This document shows, in pieces, positions 24,358 through 59,715 of a DNA stretch of 64,000 nucleotides. Both the position numbers and the translations under genes were made by a program. The notes below the pieces were generated by a model. The model saw nothing but the letters and a program-made list of their open reading frames with translations, was not told the origin of the DNA and did no database searches. Every line of letters begins with the position of its first letter. The stretch's first letter is position 1. The DNA is from an uncultured Flavobacteriaceae bacterium (lineage in GTDB: Bacteria > Bacteroidota > Bacteroidia > Flavobacteriales > Flavobacteriaceae): the NCBI GenBank assembly GCA_947498845.1, contig CANMLX010000022.1, forward strand, positions 1,452 through 65,451, written 5' to 3'.

Positions 24358-24480
24358 TGTCATGTCGACAGAGTGAAGTATGAGCGACGGAGACATCTCA
24401 CTTGTTGACCTCCTCGTAAAGCATCGTTTCACATCTTCAATCAAAATGTATTTTAATTTCAATAGCATTCGGAATTGACA
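24358..24480. repeat. R2 palindromic-ended intergenic repeat, copy 1
   Basis: Left end TGTCATGTCGACAGAGTG; right end reverse complement TGTCAATTCCGAATG. The internal block CTTCAATCAAAATGTATTTTAATTTCAATA is shared with 31508-31537. Confidence 0.6.
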
Positions 24481-30785: not shown

Positions 30786-31103
30786 TTAAAGAGACCCAAC
30801 GGTCTTGCTATAATCAACCTCTTTAAGAGTGCCTTCAATAACGTAAACCCACTTGCCTACTTTTTTACCTCCTTTGTAATAGGCAGTAACGACCTTTTTA
30901 CCTTTTTCATCAAAACTAAGCCACTCGCCTTCTAATTTACCATCGGCAGTATAAGACCCAGTTTGGCTTATCTCGCCATTGTCATGATAGTAAACCACGT
31001 CTATTAAGTTGGTGTCTTCGTTTAAGGTTAAAGTACGTTCTTTTTGAGCAAATGTTGATACGCTTATCAATAGTACTGCAATAAGTGTTATATATTTTTT
31101 CAT
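30786..31103 (-). CDS. exported YwqK/MORN-variant repeat protein (orphan immunity-like)
   Basis: Signal peptide MKKYITLIAVLLISVSTFAQ. Repeats DGKLEGEWLSFDEKGKKV / GGKKVGKWVYV. Confidence 0.65.
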   Translation of the reverse strand: MKKYITLIAVLLISVSTFAQKERTLTLNEDTNLIDVVYYHDNGEISQTGSYTADGKLEGEWLSFDEKGKKVVTAYYKGGKKVGKWVYVIEGTLKEVDYSKTVGSL

Positions 31104-31397
31104 AAGTATGTAATGTTTTAGGGGCATATCTAACGCTTCAAGTAATCATTCTATTACAATTAAAAATCTTATTAAAGCTCGTTTTATATGTCTATTATTA
31201 ATTATTTCTATGGCAAATATATATAATAATTAACATTCAAACAACTATTACGTAACATTAAATTAACATTGAAAGTATAAGACACTGATTTTTAGTTTTT
31301 TAATATAGAAAAATAATTAACAAGCAAAGAAAGTATAGTACTACATAATGAGCTAAAATATAGTAAAAGATACCTGTTGTGTATTTGGTTAAAATTC

Positions 31398-31547
31398 TGT
31401 CAATTCGAGTGATTTTTTGTAATGAAATGAAGAAAAATTGTATCGAGAATAAGAATTTTAACTTCTAGAATAGTTCTCGATACACTTTTTAAGCTTCGCT
31501 TGGTATCTTCAATCAAAATATATTTTGATTTCGATAATCTCAAAAGC
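31398..31547. repeat. R2 palindromic-ended repeat, copy 2 (interrupted by IS110; right end at 33090-33103)
   Basis: Left end TGTCAATTCGAGTG. Internal hairpin GTATCGAGAA...TTCTCGATAC. Right-end reverse complement TGTCAGTTCGAGC lies beyond the IS. Confidence 0.6.
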
Positions 31548-31572
31548 ACTACTAATGACGTAACATATTAAT

Positions 31573-32871
31573 TCATTGATTTACAATAACTTTCATATTT
31601 AGTTCGTTTGCTAGTTTTTTAATGTTTTTTTGTTTTCTTACCAAGAGTTCTTCTCTGTAAAGTTGAGCCCCTTTTTTAATATAATCCATACCCTCGATGA
31701 ATAATTTCCAGTAGAGTATAGCTAGTTTCCTTGCCATAGCTTTTATAGCTACCATTGGACCTTTGCGACTTCTTAGCCGCCTACCAAATTCACCGATTGC
31801 CGAGGTCTTACTCTTTATTAGGCTTTGGGCAATATTCCTAAATATTCGCCCTGCCTGGTTGTTTGTTCTCTTTTTCTTGGATCGTCTTTTCTTTCCCGAC
31901 CAGTTCTGACCTGGAGCCAACCCCAACCATGAAGTAAAGTGTTTTTCCGTTTTCCATTTACTCAAATCATGACTAGTCTCTGATAAAAGTTTCATCCAAG
32001 AATAATCTGTGATCCCTTCGATTTTAGTAGCATCGATGTTTTTGAATATAGAAAGCATGTTTGCTCCAAGGTTGTCTACTTGGGGTTTGTTATGGCGAAT
32101 TGGTTTTCTTGGACTCTCAAGATTATCATCACTTTTATTCTTGCCTAAAATCTTGATCTGTTTTTCTATTTCTTGGTCACAGGCTTTGATTTGCATTTGG
32201 TAAAATTGATAACTCTGATAGGCTTGTCGCAAAGCAAAAAGGCCAGACTCTGTATAATAGCCCTCCAGAGATTTTAATACCTTGTCTCTCTTTGTTTTCA
32301 AAATAGAACTATGACAAAGGTTGGCTAGCTTCTGTTTATCCCTTGCTCCAGATAATATAGCCTCAATGATGCGTAGACCACTAACACCATGAATTTGACT
32401 CAATACTTCTTTTAATCTAATGTTCATTTCTAAAAGTGCCTTCTGCATATGTTGTATATGCATAGAAGCACTTCTGATATGATCATCCCGAAGCCGTGTA
32501 TAACTTCTAAGGTTTTTCATATGCTCTTCCAATACAAAACATCTGTTTAATAGCCCATAACTGTGTAATTGTTGGATCCATTGGCAGTCCTTGATATCTG
32601 TTTTGCGACCTGGTACTTGTTTGGTTTCACGACCATCTACTAGCCAAGTCTCAAAACCCATCTCCTCTAAAATCATATAGAGTACCATCCAATAGCTGCC
32701 TGTAGCTTCCATGGCAACGCTCTCTATGCCATGAGACTTTAGGTGGTTCCCGCAACTTATAAAATCTTCTGTAAAGGTGTCAAAAACCTTGACCTGTTCA
32801 TTTTCAATGGCTACAAAAATCTGTTGGGCACCAATATCAATACCTGCTGAATGTTTTCTAATTTTTTTCAT
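31573..32871 (-). CDS. IS110-family (DEDD/RuvC-like + Ser) transposase/recombinase
   Basis: 432 aa. AGIDIG, MEATGSYW, KTDIKDCQWIQQLH (DEDD residues), C-terminal HFTSWLGLAPGQNWSGKK. Confidence 0.9.
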   Translation of the reverse strand: MKKIRKHSAGIDIGAQQIFVAIENEQVKVFDTFTEDFISCGNHLKSHGIESVAMEATGSYWMVLYMILEEMGFETWLVDGRETKQVPGRKTDIKDCQWIQQLHSYGLLNRCFVLEEHMKNLRSYTRLRDDHIRSASMHIQHMQKALLEMNIRLKEVLSQIHGVSGLRIIEAILSGARDKQKLANLCHSSILKTKRDKVLKSLEGYYTESGLFALRQAYQSYQFYQMQIKACDQEIEKQIKILGKNKSDDNLESPRKPIRHNKPQVDNLGANMLSIFKNIDATKIEGITDYSWMKLLSETSHDLSKWKTEKHFTSWLGLAPGQNWSGKKRRSKKKRTNNQAGRIFRNIAQSLIKSKTSAIGEFGRRLRSRKGPMVAIKAMARKLAILYWKLFIEGMDYIKKGAQLYREELLVRKQKNIKKLANELNMKVIVNQ

Positions 32872-33089
32872 ACGATTGTTTTTAATATTTCCACACCCTT
32901 AAAGTGATAGTTCATAGATAAACTACTAAACGGGCTCTAAGCTCCAAAATTCTTTACTCTACTTCAAAGACCCAAACTCGAATACAGGCTGTAATGCACT
33001 AACTGAGATACGGACACACTGTGAGGAAAATATTGTGATATACAAAGTTAAAAACGTCATTCTTTTTTCTTTGTAATTTTTTTCGAGTG
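32872..33089 (-). ncRNA. candidate IS110 bridge (guide) RNA in the 5' non-coding arm
   Basis: Position and length fit the IS110-subgroup layout. It contains an 8-nt copy of the IS 3' terminus (ACTACTAA at 32922-29 = 31548-55). It also contains a 7-nt complement of the 5' terminus (ACTCGAA at 32976-82 versus TTCGAGT at 33082-88). Not folded. Confidence 0.35.
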
Positions 33090-33303
33090 GCTCGAACTGA
33101 CATTTTGATATTTTTTAGATTTCTAAATGCACGACAGGTTAAAAATATATAAATAAGTGTTAGGCATTAATTTTAGTAATTGTAAAATACCTTGATTATA
33201 TTGAGTTACTAATATAAAAATTTAGGTCTTAAAAAATAACGTTTAAATAACAATAAAAACAGTATTAGTTAAGATATTTGCGCACTTATAACCTAACGCC
33301 CTT

Positions 33304-35586
33304 ATGGACAACATTTACTTTTACATGCTTATCGCTATTACAGTATTAGCAGTCGCTGATATTGTAGTTGGTGTAAGTAATGATGCAATAAATTTTTTAA
33401 ACTCTGCCATAGGCTCCAAAGCCATTTCTCTAAAAACCATAATGATTGTTGCCAGTATTGGCATTTTTGTAGGTGCCGTGTTTTCCAGTGGATTAATGGA
33501 GGTGGCCAGAAAAGGCATTTTTGTGCCCGCCCAGTTTAATTTTCATGAAATCATGCTCATATTTATGGCGGTAATGATTACCGACATTCTTTTACTAGAT
33601 TTTTTTAATACGTTAGGCTTACCTACATCTACTACAGTTTCCATAGTGTTTAATTTACTGGGAGCCGCTGTAGTTATGGCTATTATTAAAATTAATGCTT
33701 CAGATACAGAGACTATTGCCAACCTAGGCAATTATATTAACTCTAAAAAAGCAAAAGAAATTATTGGGGGCATCTTGTTATCGGTCGTTATTGCTTTTAG
33801 TATTGGTGCTTTTGTACAATGGATCACACGTTTAATCTTTACCTTTCATTATGAAAAAAAGATTAAAAATTTTGGCGCTTTTTTTGGAGGTTTAGCTTTA
33901 ACCGCTATTCTTTACTTTATTTTTATGAAGGGTTTAAAAGGCACCCCTTATTATAAAGACTTAAAAGGTGTTATTGAAGGCCGTGAACTACTAATTATAC
34001 TCTCAGGTTTTGTATTATTTACGTTGCTTTCTTATGTGTTTCAAAAAATAACTCAAAAAAGCATTCTTATTGTAGTAATAGTAGTGGGAACGTTTGGATT
34101 AGCATTAGCATTTTCTGGAAACGATTTGGTAAACTTTATAGGTGTACCAATGGCTGCTTATCATTCTCACGAGGCCTGGATAGATTCGGGTGTGATTGCT
34201 ACAGACTTTACTATGGGGGTATTGAATAAAAAAATGCCAGCAGAACCTTTTTTGCTATTTATAGCAGGCGCCATTATGGTTGTTACATTATGGTTTTCTA
34301 AAAAAGCAAGAACAGTAGCAGAAACAGAAATAAGTTTATCAAGACAAGGCGCTACACACGAAAAATTTAGTCCCAACATATTGTCCAGAAATATTGTAAA
34401 AGGGATTACCTGGTTATCACAAAACTTAGGAGGGATTGTTCCTGTTGAAACGCAACGTAAAATAGATGCCAGATTTAAAAAAGTTGATACAGTAGCCTTA
34501 ACAAAAGACCAAAGTATAGATGCCCCTGCTTTCGATTTAATAAGAGCATCTGTAAACCTTATGGTAGCAGGCGTGCTTATATCTATTGCTACAACAATGA
34601 AATTACCACTCTCTACAACCTATGTTACTTTTATGGTAGCAATGGGAACATCTTTAGCCGATAGAGCATGGGGATCTGAAAGTGCTGTATACAGAGTAGC
34701 AGGTGTTTTAAATGTTATTGGAGGATGGTTTGGTACTGCATTTGGTGCTTTCACAGCAGCTGGAATCGTGGTATTCTTTATTAATTGGAATCCAATGGTA
34801 ATGACACCTATTTTATTGGTGCTTACAGCTATACTACTCGTAAGAAATTATATTTCTCATAAAAAGAAATCCGACATCATTAAAGATGAAAGTACACTTA
34901 TAAAAGCAGAGAGCAGCTCTATACAGGGTGTAATACATGAGAGTGTTAACAATATAGTAAATGTATTGTCGAGAGGAAACAAAGTATACTCATCTACAAT
35001 TACCGGATTAGCCAAACAAGATTTATCCCTATTAAAAAAGAATAAAAAGAATATTGTAAAACTATCTGATGAAGTAGAAGAATTGCGAGATCATATTTTT
35101 TATTTTATTAAAAATTTAGATGAAACCAGTAGTGTTGGCGCCAGTAATTTTTACATTAATATATTGGGGTATTTACAGGATATGACACAATCTTTAGAAT
35201 ACATATCCAAAGTAAGCCATAAGCATGTAAATAATAATCACAAAAAACTTAGATTCAATCAAATAAAAGAGCTAAGGCAAGTAGATGATGCCATGAATAC
35301 CTTGTTAGAAACTACGATTTCTGCATTTAAATCTATGTCGTTTGAGGAAATAGGGGCTGTACTAAATAATAAACAAGAGCTATTTAATTTAGTGACCGAA
35401 AAAATCCAAAAGCAAGTTGAAAGAACCAGAACAGAGGAATCTAGTCCAAAGAATACAACCTTGTATTTTGGCGTTTTATTAGAAACAAAAGATTTACTAA
35501 AGGCTATCATGGATCTTTTAAACGAATATCACAGCGCTCACGATGCCTCGGTAGCACCAGCTACCATTTCGGGAAGTGATAGATAA
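33304..35586 (+). CDS. inorganic phosphate transporter (PiT/PHO4 family) with long C-terminal cytoplasmic helical domain
   Basis: 760 aa with many TM helices. Duplicated PHO4 signatures GVSNDAINFLNSAIGS and GNDLVNFIGVP. The C-terminal ~230 aa are soluble and helical (PhoU-like by position). Confidence 0.85.
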   Translation: MDNIYFYMLIAITVLAVADIVVGVSNDAINFLNSAIGSKAISLKTIMIVASIGIFVGAVFSSGLMEVARKGIFVPAQFNFHEIMLIFMAVMITDILLLDFFNTLGLPTSTTVSIVFNLLGAAVVMAIIKINASDTETIANLGNYINSKKAKEIIGGILLSVVIAFSIGAFVQWITRLIFTFHYEKKIKNFGAFFGGLALTAILYFIFMKGLKGTPYYKDLKGVIEGRELLIILSGFVLFTLLSYVFQKITQKSILIVVIVVGTFGLALAFSGNDLVNFIGVPMAAYHSHEAWIDSGVIATDFTMGVLNKKMPAEPFLLFIAGAIMVVTLWFSKKARTVAETEISLSRQGATHEKFSPNILSRNIVKGITWLSQNLGGIVPVETQRKIDARFKKVDTVALTKDQSIDAPAFDLIRASVNLMVAGVLISIATTMKLPLSTTYVTFMVAMGTSLADRAWGSESAVYRVAGVLNVIGGWFGTAFGAFTAAGIVVFFINWNPMVMTPILLVLTAILLVRNYISHKKKSDIIKDESTLIKAESSSIQGVIHESVNNIVNVLSRGNKVYSSTITGLAKQDLSLLKKNKKNIVKLSDEVEELRDHIFYFIKNLDETSSVGASNFYINILGYLQDMTQSLEYISKVSHKHVNNNHKKLRFNQIKELRQVDDAMNTLLETTISAFKSMSFEEIGAVLNNKQELFNLVTEKIQKQVERTRTEESSPKNTTLYFGVLLETKDLLKAIMDLLNEYHSAHDASVAPATISGSDR

Positions 35587-59604: not shown

Positions 59605-59715
59605 TGTCAGTTCGAGTGTTTTTTATGAAGAGATAACGAAATAAAAAATGTATCGAGAACAGGTTAGCAGTTTCTCGATACATCACGCTAAGGCGTGACA
59701 CTCAAAGAAATGACA
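59605..59715. repeat. R2 palindromic-ended repeat, copy 3
   Basis: Left end TGTCAGTTCGAGTG. Hairpin GTATCGAGAAC...TTTCTCGATAC. Right-end reverse complement TGTCATTTCTTTGAGTG. A further right-end-like fragment ends at 59533. Confidence 0.6.

What the first reader, a model, noticed from the sequence alone, without database searches (positions are those of the whole stretch)
32872..33089. Candidate bridge RNA in the IS110 left arm, with short guide-like matches to both IS termini
**Layout:** the element has 218 nt of non-coding sequence 5' of the recombinase gene and only 25 nt 3' of it. This is the layout of IS110-subgroup elements, whose 5' arm encodes a bispecific bridge RNA (established for IS621-type elements).

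**Terminus matches:**
- 32922-32929 (ACTACTAA) is identical to the last 8 nt of the IS at 31548-31555.
- 32976-32982 (ACTCGAA) is the reverse complement of 33082-33088, which are nt 2-8 of the other terminus.

Read as RNA, one segment has the sense of one end and the other is antisense to the other end, which fits a donor-binding loop.

**Weaker flank matches:** AACTGA (33001-06) equals the flank at 33095-33100, and TGAGAT (33004-09) is the reverse complement of the flank at 31537-42.
Basis: partly seen in the sequence, partly recalled or inferred. Interest (0 to 1): 0.7.

Follow-up and report, generated by a model that had tools for sequence, protein, structure and literature searches.

The report
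Bridge RNA gene of an IS110 element

Summary
A structured RNA of about 150 nt lies at window 32882-33033 on the minus strand. That is the recombinase strand, inside the 5' arm of a 1,542-bp IS110-family element (31549-33090).

- **Structure:** Across 34 relatives, five helices are 90.7% paired, against 35-51% when partners are slid. A covariance model built on them also finds the RNA upstream of distant, held-out recombinases in other phyla.
- **Guides:** Two loop segments, each just 3' of a conserved hairpin, covary with DNA.
  - UUCGAG (32982..32977) copies the target's left flank plus an AG core.
  - UUAGUAG (32929..32923) copies the element's right end plus the same core.
The 8-nt match is this donor guide. 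The 7-nt reverse-complement match is real in the sequence but misassigned. The conserved partner is the direct copy at the left junction (33096..33091).
- **Right-hand guides:** I found no donor right guide. A target right guide is supported mainly in other phyla.
- **Layout:** The guide order is the mirror of IS621 and resembles the IS1111 type, although the RNA is encoded upstream of the gene.

Verdict: a new member of a known kind, of moderate interest.

The parts
31549..33090 (-). IS110-family insertion sequence, 1,542 bp. It reads CCACTCGAA...ACGTCATTAGT-AG in recombinase sense. One AG core copy is counted at the right end; the other lies in the flank at 33091-33092.
   Evidence: An empty paralogous site at 59606-59625. 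Divergence points between multi-copy relatives L001/L002, L019-L040 and L086-L088.
31573..32871 (-). Recombinase gene, 432 aa, with a DEDD RuvC-like domain and a Transposase_20 domain. D12, E55, D92, D95 and S325 are invariant in the clade.
   Evidence: Pfam PF01548 1e-16 and PF02371 6e-12. NCBIfam NF033542 'IS110 family RNA-guided transposase', 208 bits. A clade profile hits the IS621 transposase (3.7e-16) and the ISCro4 transposase in the PDB.
32882..33033 (-). Bridge RNA gene (covariance-model match). The layout is outer stem P1, then loop 1 closed by P1b, then loop 2 closed by P2.
   Evidence: cmsearch with R1: 120.3 bits, E = 3e-26, the only hit in the 64 kb and on the minus strand only. 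Helix covariation.
33043..33050 (-). Bacteroidota-type -7 promoter box TAACTTTG, 9 nt upstream of the RNA model start. Transcription start is inferred near 33036-33039.
   Evidence: A strict TAnnTTTG lies within 40 nt upstream of the RNA in 15 of 32 non-redundant Bacteroidota arms, against 0 of 32 control windows. The consensus itself is from my own knowledge of Bacteroides promoters.
33021..33027 (-). P1 5' strand. It pairs with 32890-32896.
   Evidence: All 7 pairs show changes on both sides; 75.6% of cells are paired.
33012..33015 (-). P1b 5' strand (GUCC). It pairs with 32970-32973 and closes loop 1.
   Evidence: 97.1% paired, with GGCC/GGUU, AGCU/AGCU and AAUC/GAUU variants.
33002..33010 (-). 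5' strand of loop 1 (UAUCUCAGU), the putative right-target guide. AUCUCA is complementary to TGAGAT at 31537-31542.
   Evidence: [quoted passage not shown] The cognate mean is 3.96 against 3.00 (z 5.4). Not significant in Bacteroidota. The window match lies at +8..+13; the chance of 6 nt or more is 1.4%.
32985..33001 (-). Conserved hairpin 1 (UAGUGC...GCCUG), which separates the two strands of loop 1.
   Evidence: Four pairs are invariant and the fifth switches CG (18) to UA (14).
32977..32984 (-). Guide A, the left-target guide (UAUUCGAG). UUCGAG is a sense copy of target positions -4..+1 including the AG core.
   Evidence: Column identity to the cognate left flank is 93-100%, against 9-50% to the donor. 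The longest cognate run is 6.14 against 3.33 for non-cognate pairs and 6.39 against 3.20 in the wider set. An exact 6-mer copy lies 40-100 nt upstream in 23 of 32 held-out RNA hits.
32961..32969 (-). P2 5' strand. It pairs with 32897-32905 and closes loop 2.
   Evidence: All 9 pairs show changes on both sides; 88.5% of cells are paired.
32932..32945 (-). Conserved hairpin 2 (GGAGC..GCCC), shortened in the window compared with most relatives.
   Evidence: Pair 113-141 is GC in 17 sequences and AU in 17. 97% paired.
32923..32930 (-). Guide B, the left-donor guide (UUUAGUAG). UUAGUAG is a sense copy of the element's right end plus the AG core.
   Evidence: Column identity to the cognate right end is 91-100%, against 7-46% to the target. 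The longest cognate run is 7.07 against 4.32.
33091..33101 (-). Left half of the target at the left junction, GTCAGTTCG-AG. The core is 33092..33091.
   Evidence: Direct reading. Identical to the empty site at 59606-59616.
31549..31561 (-). Right end of the element, ACGTCATTAGT-AG. It is the left donor half plus core and includes the right sub-terminal inverted repeat ACGTCATT at 31554-31561.
33054..33061 (-). Left sub-terminal inverted repeat AATGACGT, 29 nt inside the left end. It is the partner of 31554-31561.
   Evidence: The repeat covaries across relatives: TTGTCAT/ATGACAA in L003, L006, L013 and L037, and GAGTTTC/GAAACTC in the Acidobacteria group.
31399..31548 (.). Body of the palindromic repeat that was hit. 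The left arm GTCAATTCGAGTGATTTT is at 31399-31420. The right arm is split by the element.
   Evidence: 31491-31536 and 31398-31449 have paralogues at 24.4 kb and 59.6 kb.
59606..59625 (+). Unoccupied paralogous target site, GTCAGTTCGAG|TGTTTTTT.

Best explanation
The 5' arm encodes a bridge (seek) RNA of about 150 nt, probably transcribed from a Bacteroidota-type promoter just inside the left sub-terminal repeat, on the recombinase strand.

**Fold:** an outer stem encloses two internal loops, and each loop is split by a conserved hairpin.

**Guides:**
- In loop 1, the strand 3' of the hairpin (UUCGAG) is a sense copy of the target's left flank plus an AG core. [quoted passage not shown]
- In loop 2, the equivalent strand (UUAGUAG) is a sense copy of the element's right end plus the same core. 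[quoted passage not shown]

**Mechanism (inferred):** bound by the DEDD/serine recombinase, the RNA brings the two DNAs together. Exchange at the shared AG core then inserts the element into GTCAGTTCG-AG-TG sites, which lie in a palindromic genomic repeat.

**Shown here:** the RNA-level structure, guide-to-DNA covariation, the shared core, an intact catalytic set, and the element boundaries.

**Inferred only:** transcription, protein binding and the chemistry, all by homology with IS621 and with IS1111/ISEc21-type elements.
For: **Protein family.** An IS110 RNA-guided transposase. A clade profile reaches the IS621 and ISCro4 transposases in the PDB, and the catalytic residues are invariant.

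**Structure.**
- 34 sequences give 90.7% of cells paired, against 35-51% when partners are slid.
- 245 cells have changes on both sides, against 82 in shuffles (0 of 500 shuffles reach it).
- RNAalifold independently recovers four of the five helices.

**Model search.** Model R1 hits the window once, on the minus strand, at 120 bits. It also hits just upstream of the recombinase gene in 28 loci that were not used to build it; 26 of these are from other phyla, the other two (L031, L035) being Bacteroidota.

**Guides.**
- Guide A matches the left flank in 93-100% of cognate pairs. Guide B matches the right end in 91-100% of cognate pairs. Cross-pairings match far less.
- Cognate against non-cognate z scores are 13-25.
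- The core switches to AC in both guides and both junctions of L037.
- 23 of 32 held-out RNA hits carry an exact 6-mer copy of guide A at the left junction.

**Close relatives.** Relatives at 80-89% identity differ in guide A and in the flank concordantly.

**Boundaries.** An empty site at 59606 fixes them.

**Promoter.** The promoter box is enriched upstream of the RNA.
Against: - There are no expression data.
- The single-sequence fold is not better than shuffles (z = 0.10).
- No Rfam family matches.
- No RNA segment covaries with the left end of the element (right donor). The right-target guide signal is absent in the Bacteroidota set.
- In the window, guide A matches only 6 nt at the occupied junction, or 7 nt at the reconstructed target site.
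- Only one copy of the element lies in the 64 kb, so recent activity is not shown.
Confidence: 0.9

Rival explanations
1. The arm is only a structured 5' leader and promoter of the recombinase mRNA, for example for translational control. On this view the short repeats are DNA-level recombinase binding sites, like the sub-terminal repeats of other insertion sequences, and not RNA guides.
For: - The RNA model ends 10 nt before the ATG, and no terminator is evident.
- A true DNA-level sub-terminal inverted repeat exists, ACGTCATT / AATGACGT.
- No right-donor guide was found.
Against: - Guide A covaries with sequence outside the element (the target flank). A binding-site repeat inside the element cannot explain this.
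- G-U pairs and compensatory changes show selection at the RNA level on the recombinase strand.
- Homologous recombinases are shown experimentally to need such RNAs (PMC11208160, PMC11187229).
Confidence: 0.05
2. The RNA gene is real in the family, but this copy is a decayed or immobile relic, and the window-specific matches are chance.
For: - The element is single-copy in the window.
- The matches are not significant within the single sequence.
- Hairpin 2 is shortened in the window.
- The putative right-target match lies at an unusual offset.
Against: - The open reading frame is intact with all catalytic residues.
- The RNA scores 120 bits, as high as the relatives.
- Both guides match their cognate junctions exactly over 6-7 nt.
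- The short hairpin 2 is shared with the 70-89% identical relatives L081, L085, L086 and L001, so it is a lineage trait, not decay.
Confidence: 0.04

Closest known systems
IS621 bridge RNA (IS110 group; Durrant et al. 2024, PMC11208160; Hiraizumi et al. 2024, PMC11208158)
   Same: - Encoded in the left non-coding end, upstream of a DEDD/serine recombinase.
- Has two internal loops, each interrupted by a hairpin. One loop reads the target and the other reads the element's own ends.
- Both guides include a shared core dinucleotide.
- Natural targets are repetitive palindromic elements.
- The recombinases are distant homologues (profile E = 3.7e-16).
   Different: [quoted passage not shown]
- The core is AG, not CT.
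- The left guides are 6-7 nt rather than 8-9 nt.
- No right-donor guide was detected, and the right-target guide is weak.
- There is no separate 5' stem-loop. An outer stem encloses both loops instead.
- The protein is 432 aa and is not found by a single-sequence search against IS621.
IS1111-type seekRNA / bridge RNA (ISEc11, ISPa11, ISKpn4; Siddiquee et al. 2024, PMC11187229)
   Same: [quoted passage not shown]
- There is a sub-terminal inverted repeat of 7-8 bp, with a 3-bp extension beyond it at the right end (ACGTCATT-AGT before the core).
- ISPa11 also targets REP sequences.
   Different: - The RNA here is upstream of the recombinase gene, not downstream. The paper notes a few such exceptions.
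- The left extension beyond the inverted repeat is 29 nt (about 30-40 nt in relatives) rather than about 7 bp.
- Phylogenetic placement relative to IS1111 could not be tested here.
ISEc21 seekRNA (IS110 type with an upstream non-coding region; PMC11187229)
   Same: The non-coding region upstream of the gene gives a short RNA that co-purifies with the recombinase and can be reprogrammed.
   Different: - In ISEc21 the bottom-strand match precedes the top-strand match. Here the order is reversed.
- A 38%-identical E. coli and Citrobacter relative that I examined (L090) sits in the frameshift region of IS3-family elements. [quoted passage not shown]
ISPpu10 (bioRxiv 10.64898/2026.03.19.712850)
   Same: Insertion into conserved intergenic hairpin-forming repeats. 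That preprint reports that the target DNA structure contributes to recognition in addition to RNA pairing.
   Different: The conserved GTCA five bases upstream of the guided segment is only an observation.

Membership tests
IS110-family bridge/seek RNA | Encoded in a non-coding end of an element whose only gene is a DEDD (RuvC-like) plus Tnp-domain recombinase. | tested here: met
   The RNA lies at 32882-33033, directly upstream of the CDS at 31573-32871.
IS110-family bridge/seek RNA | A conserved secondary structure with two internal loops, supported by covariation. | tested here: met
   (90.7% paired; 27 of 34 pairs change on both sides), and held-out hits.
IS110-family bridge/seek RNA | A loop segment covaries with the left flank of the insertion site. 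| tested here: met
IS110-family bridge/seek RNA | A loop segment is complementary to the right flank of the insertion site. | tested here: inconclusive
   In held-out phyla the cognate mean is 3.96 against 3.00 (z 5.4), and 25% of cognate pairs reach 5 nt or more against 5.7% of non-cognate pairs. There is no signal in the Bacteroidota set. The window has 6 nt, but at +8..+13.
IS110-family bridge/seek RNA | The second loop covaries with the element's own ends (the donor). | tested here: met
   Met for the right end. No segment was found for the left end, whether read as sense or antisense.
IS110-family bridge/seek RNA | The same core dinucleotide is present in the target, the donor and both guides. 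| tested here: met
   AG throughout, and AC in all four places in L037. The second core base at the right junction deviates in 8 of 30 Bacteroidota insertions.
IS110-family bridge/seek RNA | The RNA is expressed, binds the recombinase and is required for transposition. | not testable with these tools
   There is only a conserved promoter-like box.
IS110-family bridge/seek RNA | A match to a curated RNA family model. | tested here: not met
   The Rfam 15 E-value scan of 31000-33600 gave no relevant hit. Whether Rfam holds a bridge RNA model at all is unknown to me.
IS621-like (IS110 group) layout | [quoted passage not shown] | tested here: not met
   The sense guides follow the hairpins, on the 3' side, in contrast to PMC11208160.
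IS1111 group | Sub-terminal inverted repeats of 7-17 bp. | tested here: met
   ACGTCATT / AATGACGT, covarying in relatives. The left copy is unusually deep, 29 nt from the end.
IS1111 group | The guide RNA is encoded downstream of the recombinase gene, with a long right end. | tested here: not met
   The right non-coding end is 22 nt, and the RNA is upstream.
IS1111 group | The recombinase clusters with IS1111-type proteins. | not tested
   No reference IS1111-group sequences were available. The hits of a tblastn search against plasmids carry only the generic name 'IS110 family transposase'.

The most novel reading that the evidence does not exclude
This widespread clade may be a distinct bridge-RNA architecture. 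It numbers at least 7,982 homologues and spans Bacteroidota, Acidobacteria, Chloroflexi and Proteobacteria.

- The RNA is encoded upstream, as in IS110-type elements, but the guide order and the sub-terminal repeats are as in IS1111-type elements.
- Site choice may rest mainly on one 6-7-nt left guide per DNA, plus a conserved DNA motif or hairpin (GTCA five bases upstream in Bacteroidota).
- The target left half mimics the element's own right end. As a result these elements home into palindromic repeats and into the ends of related elements, building head-to-tail arrays.
Probability: 0.25. Interest if true: 0.55.

Novelty: new member of a known kind. Interest (0 to 1): 0.35.

Why it matters
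**Annotation.** The work turns an unannotated 219-nt arm into a defined RNA gene with nucleotide-level guide assignments, exact element boundaries and a predicted preferred site. An empty copy of that site lies at 59606.

**A usable model.** It also yields a covariance model for a large, poorly described branch of RNA-guided recombinases. Members of that branch could be screened as compact editing enzymes (432 aa plus an RNA of about 150 nt).

**Open questions it raises:**
- The mirrored guide order.
- The very short effective guides.
- Frequent insertions whose right flank does not match any guide.
- Natural head-to-tail arrays.

These bear on how much pairing bridge recombination really needs, and on how IS110 and IS1111 layouts are related. 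None of this overturns current understanding.

Tried and rejected
- **Single-sequence fold of the arm:** no better than shuffles (z = 0.10), so not informative.
- **Rfam scan:** nothing relevant.
- **Other copies of the element:** none in the window, and none by exact-protein look-up.
- **Single-sequence search of the protein against the PDB:** no hit. Only a clade profile reached IS621.
- **Antisense or sense guides for the right target and right donor:** I searched every loop strand, the hairpin-1 loop and the 3' tail, both column-wise and alignment-free. Nothing turned up in the Bacteroidota set. Only the loop-1 5' strand against the right target appeared, once other phyla were added.
- **A split donor guide:** I tested whether the frequent GAGUCAC in the 5' strand of loop 2 reads the conserved GTCA of the right end. 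There was no clean diagonal, so I rejected it.
relatives lack the palindrome at the left end, so I rejected it.
- **A 38%-identical enterobacterial relative (L090, L091):**
  - Model R1 did not match it.
  - By eye it has the same layout.
  - It sits in the frameshift region of IS3-family elements, so I did not equate it with ISEc21.
- **ISfinder name or IS1111/IS110 subgroup:** could not be obtained from the annotations.

Full report
**1. What is at the locus**

Window 31573-32871 on the minus strand is an intact 432-aa open reading frame. It carries the two Pfam domains of IS110-family recombinases: DEDD_Tnp_IS110 at 1e-16 and Transposase_20 at 6e-12. It also passes NCBIfam NF033542, 'IS110 family RNA-guided transposase', with 208 bits against a cut-off of 140.

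A single-sequence search does not reach any solved structure. A profile of 17 clade members does hit the IS621 transposase (E = 3.7e-16) and the ISCro4 transposase. In the printed IS621 alignment, both the N-terminal RuvC-like part and the C-terminal serine-bearing part align. D12, E55, D92, D95 and S325 are invariant in the clade alignment. In the printed alignment these correspond to the GID, E-TG, KTD..D and SG motifs of IS621.

The family is large: at least 7,982 proteins have E ≤ 1e-10. The element is single-copy in the window.

**2. Boundaries**

Read in recombinase sense (window minus strand), the two junctions are:
- Left junction: AAAATGTCAGTTCG-AG-CCACTCGAAAAAAA
- Right junction: TTACGTCATTAGT-AG-TGCTTTTGAGATT

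The motif GTCANNNCGAG occurs three times in the window, against 0.34 expected:
- at the left junction;
- at 31399 (GTCAATTCGAGTGATTTT);
- at 59606 (GTCAGTTCGAG|TGTTTTTT).

The last is an unoccupied paralogue of the target. Occupied and empty sites differ exactly by CCACTCG...CATTAGTAG, with AG shared. Multi-copy relatives diverge at the same points: L001/L002, seven Cyclobacteriaceae copies, and L086-L088.

The element is therefore 31549-33090 (1,542 bp). Its 5' arm is 219 nt and its 3' arm is 22 nt plus the core.

The target is one arm of a palindromic repeat of about 170 bp: 31399-31548 plus 33091-33101, with an internal hairpin at 31433-31490. Relatives likewise sit in palindromic repeats of the form GTCATTYNGAG...GAATCTC...CTCNRAATGAC.

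**3. The observation as such**

Taken alone they are not significant. In dinucleotide shuffles of the arm, an 8-nt direct match to the right end appears in 7.8% of shuffles, and a 7-nt reverse-complement match to the left end in 16.8%. The arm's own fold has z = 0.10, and Rfam gives nothing. Everything below rests on comparison.

**4. A conserved structured RNA**

A scan of one genome per species returned 80 loci with relatives at 36-73% identity. Closer relatives, at 80-89%, came from metagenome contigs.

The arms align well. I read five helices from the alignment:
- an outer stem, P1;
- P1b, closing loop 1;
- hairpin 1 (UAGUGY..RCCUG);
- P2, closing loop 2;
- hairpin 2 (GGURC..GYCCG).

On 34 distinct sequences, 90.7% of cells form standard pairs, against 35-51% when the 3' partners are slid by 1-3 columns. 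27 of 34 pairs change on both sides. 245 cells carry double changes, against 82.5 in shuffles, and none of 500 shuffles reaches the observed value.

RNAalifold, run without my structure, recovers P1b, hairpin 1, P2 and hairpin 2. Frequent G-U pairs fix the strand as the recombinase strand.

A covariance model of this alignment hits the window once, at 32882-33033 on the minus strand, with 120.3 bits. It also hits just upstream of the recombinase gene, on the gene's strand, in 28 loci that were not used to build it. Twenty-six of these are from Ignavibacteria, Acidobacteria, Chloroflexi, Verrucomicrobia and Proteobacteria; the other two (L031, L035) are Bacteroidota. The held-out hits from other phyla are an independent test.

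**5. Guides**

I fixed the junctions of each locus from a guide-independent motif (GTCA-N5-A). I then compared every RNA column with every junction position.

Two diagonals stand out, and both are in sense orientation:
- The six bases 3' of hairpin 1 (window UUCGAG, 32982..32977) equal target positions -4..+1 in 93-100% of 28 RNA/target pairs. They equal the donor in only 9-50%.
- The bases 3' of hairpin 2 (window UUAGUAG, 32929..32923) equal the right end at -5..0 in 91-100% of 22 pairs. They equal the target in only 7-46%.

Alignment-free comparison of cognate with non-cognate pairs agrees. The longest runs are 6.14 against 3.33 and 7.07 against 4.32 in Bacteroidota, and 6.39 against 3.20 and 6.86 against 3.35 in the full set.

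Some concrete cases:
- L013: ATGGTAG in both guide and flank.
- L003: TTAGTAG in both.
- L016: CCTCAG in both.
- L037: the core is AC in both guides and at both junctions.

In 23 of 32 held-out RNA hits, an exact copy of the last six bases of guide A lies 40-100 nt upstream of the RNA, at the left junction. About 3% would be expected for a given 6-mer in 130 nt.

Between the window and its 87%-identical relative, the guide (AUUCGAG against UAACGAG) and the flank (GTTCGAG against TTACGAG) change together at one position.

**6.

- ACTACTAA (32922-32929) is guide B. Seven of its eight bases are the covarying segment, and the eighth falls in the flank.
- ACTCGAA (32976-32982) is guide A. Its conserved partner is the direct copy CTCGAA at 33091-33096, which is the left flank plus core. 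With the reconstructed target TTCGAG|T the match is 7 nt.
- The reverse-complement partner at 33082-33088 exists because the window's left end happens to read TTCGAG-CCA-CTCGAA. Relatives lack this palindrome. The two segments therefore belong to two different loops and have the same polarity.
- TGAGAT (flank 31537-31542) is complementary to AUCUCA in the 5' strand of loop 1. By position, that strand corresponds to the second target guide.
  - The cognate mean is 3.96 against 3.00 (z 5.4).
  - 25% of cognate pairs reach 5 nt or more, against 5.7% of non-cognate pairs.
  - In Bacteroidota the signal is not significant.
  - Copies of one element sit next to different right flanks (L019-L040, L086-L088).
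  - The window's match is at +8..+13, further out than in relatives, so I treat it as possible, not shown.
- AACTGA has no comparative support.

**7. What was not found**

No RNA segment covaries with the left end of the element (the right donor half), in either sense. A split guide for the conserved GTCA was tested and rejected.

**8. Other anatomy**

*Sub-terminal inverted repeat.* The right end carries ACGTCATT (31561..31554) and the left arm carries AATGACGT (33061..33054). This repeat covaries across relatives: TTGTCAT/ATGACAA, and GAGTTTC/GAAACTC in Acidobacteria.

*Promoter box.* Directly 3' of the left copy is TAACTTTG (33050..33043). This matches the Bacteroides -7 promoter consensus TAnnTTTG, which I cite from my own knowledge. 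The strict motif lies within 40 nt upstream of the RNA in 15 of 32 non-redundant Bacteroidota arms, and in 0 of 32 control windows.

*RNA 3' end.* The RNA model ends 10 nt before the ATG. The RNA may therefore be cut from, or be the 5' part of, the recombinase transcript. This is inference.

**9. Mechanism**

*Shown:*
- a structured RNA on the recombinase strand;
- one guide per loop that copies the left half plus core of the target and of the donor respectively;
- a shared core;
- an intact recombinase.

*Inferred by homology* with IS621 (PMC11208160, PMC11208158) and with the seekRNA elements (PMC11187229):
- The element excises as a circle that joins ...CATTAGT-AG-CCACTCG....
- The RNA-recombinase complex pairs guide B with the bottom strand of that junction, and guide A with the bottom strand of GTCAGTTCG-AG-TG.
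- Strands are exchanged at the core.

At the right junction, the second core base differs from the guide in 8 of 30 Bacteroidota insertions, while the left junction always reads AG. This fits either a tolerated core mismatch resolved from one strand, or an effective one-base core.

**10. Comparison with known systems**

[quoted passage not shown] Here the bottom-strand (sense) guides are on the 3' side of both loops.

Siddiquee et al. report this reversed order for IS1111-type seekRNAs, where the top-strand complement comes first. They report the IS621 order for ISEc21. IS1111-type elements also have 7-17-bp sub-terminal repeats, which this element has. But they encode the RNA downstream of the gene, whereas here it is upstream. 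The same paper notes a few IS1111-type elements with an upstream non-coding region.

I could not place the protein phylogenetically for lack of reference sequences. I therefore file this as a member of the bridge/seek RNA kind, with an IS1111-like guide order in an IS110-like position. I do not file it as an IS621-type RNA.

**11. Novelty and score**

RNA-guided recombination by IS110/IS1111 elements is established, and NCBI already names this protein family 'RNA-guided'. Finding the RNA here is expected.

What is new:
- the nucleotide-level assignment for this branch;
- a working covariance model;
- several side observations: the mirrored order with upstream coding, very short effective guides, frequent right flanks that match no guide, and homing into the ends of related elements.

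Interest 0.35; a new member of a known kind.

Noticed in passing
window 31399-31548 with 33091-33101; paralogues near 59606-59715 and 24419-24464: The genome carries a family of palindromic repeats of about 110-170 bp. Their arms read GTCARTTCGAGTG...CACTC..TGAC and they have an internal hairpin GTATCGAGAA..TTCTCGATAC. The element sits in one arm. The copy at 59606 offers an empty, perfectly matching site.
   Followed up: partly
L057:166-3587; L003-L005; L079; L085:430-560: Related elements form head-to-tail arrays in which guide A of each copy equals the right end of the copy in front. L057 (Chloroflexales) has three different elements chained in this way. These elements therefore target each other's ends. 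The GTCA-N5-AG left half of Bacteroidota targets looks like the elements' own right end.
   Followed up: partly
L085:470-500: In the 89%-identical relative, a right end is joined directly to GGAAATGACG. This leaves only 8 bp between the two sub-terminal repeats, an IS1111-like junction, and it lacks the leading stretch of about 28 nt of the usual left end. It may be a tandem junction, a deletion derivative or an alternative donor junction.
   Followed up: no
right junctions of L008, L009, L010, L014, L017, L024, L031, L034 (and L081, L085, L087, L088): The base after the first core A at the right junction is A, C or T instead of the G specified by both guides. The left junction always reads AG. 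This affects 8 of 30 Bacteroidota insertions.
   Followed up: partly
L090:941-2543 (Citrobacter plasmid) and E. coli chromosomes L092, L093: A 38%-identical enterobacterial relative is inserted at the slippery TTAAAAAAC frameshift region of IS3-family elements. Its arm shows by eye the same hairpin-then-guide layout (CCCCG-UAAAAAAAC), but model R1 does not detect it. Sequence matching it occurs in 2,082 of 5,426 complete E. coli genomes, mostly as partial matches; only 74 genomes hold a place covering at least 80% of the query, which also included IS3- and IS66-derived flanks.
   Followed up: partly
window 33062-33090: The left end between the terminus and the inner repeat is A-rich (CCACTCGAAAAAAATTACAAAGAAAAAAG). 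It is conserved among the closest relatives as C.C..CGAAAAAAAATTACAAAGAA. Its role is unknown; it might be a spacer or part of a junction promoter.
   Followed up: no
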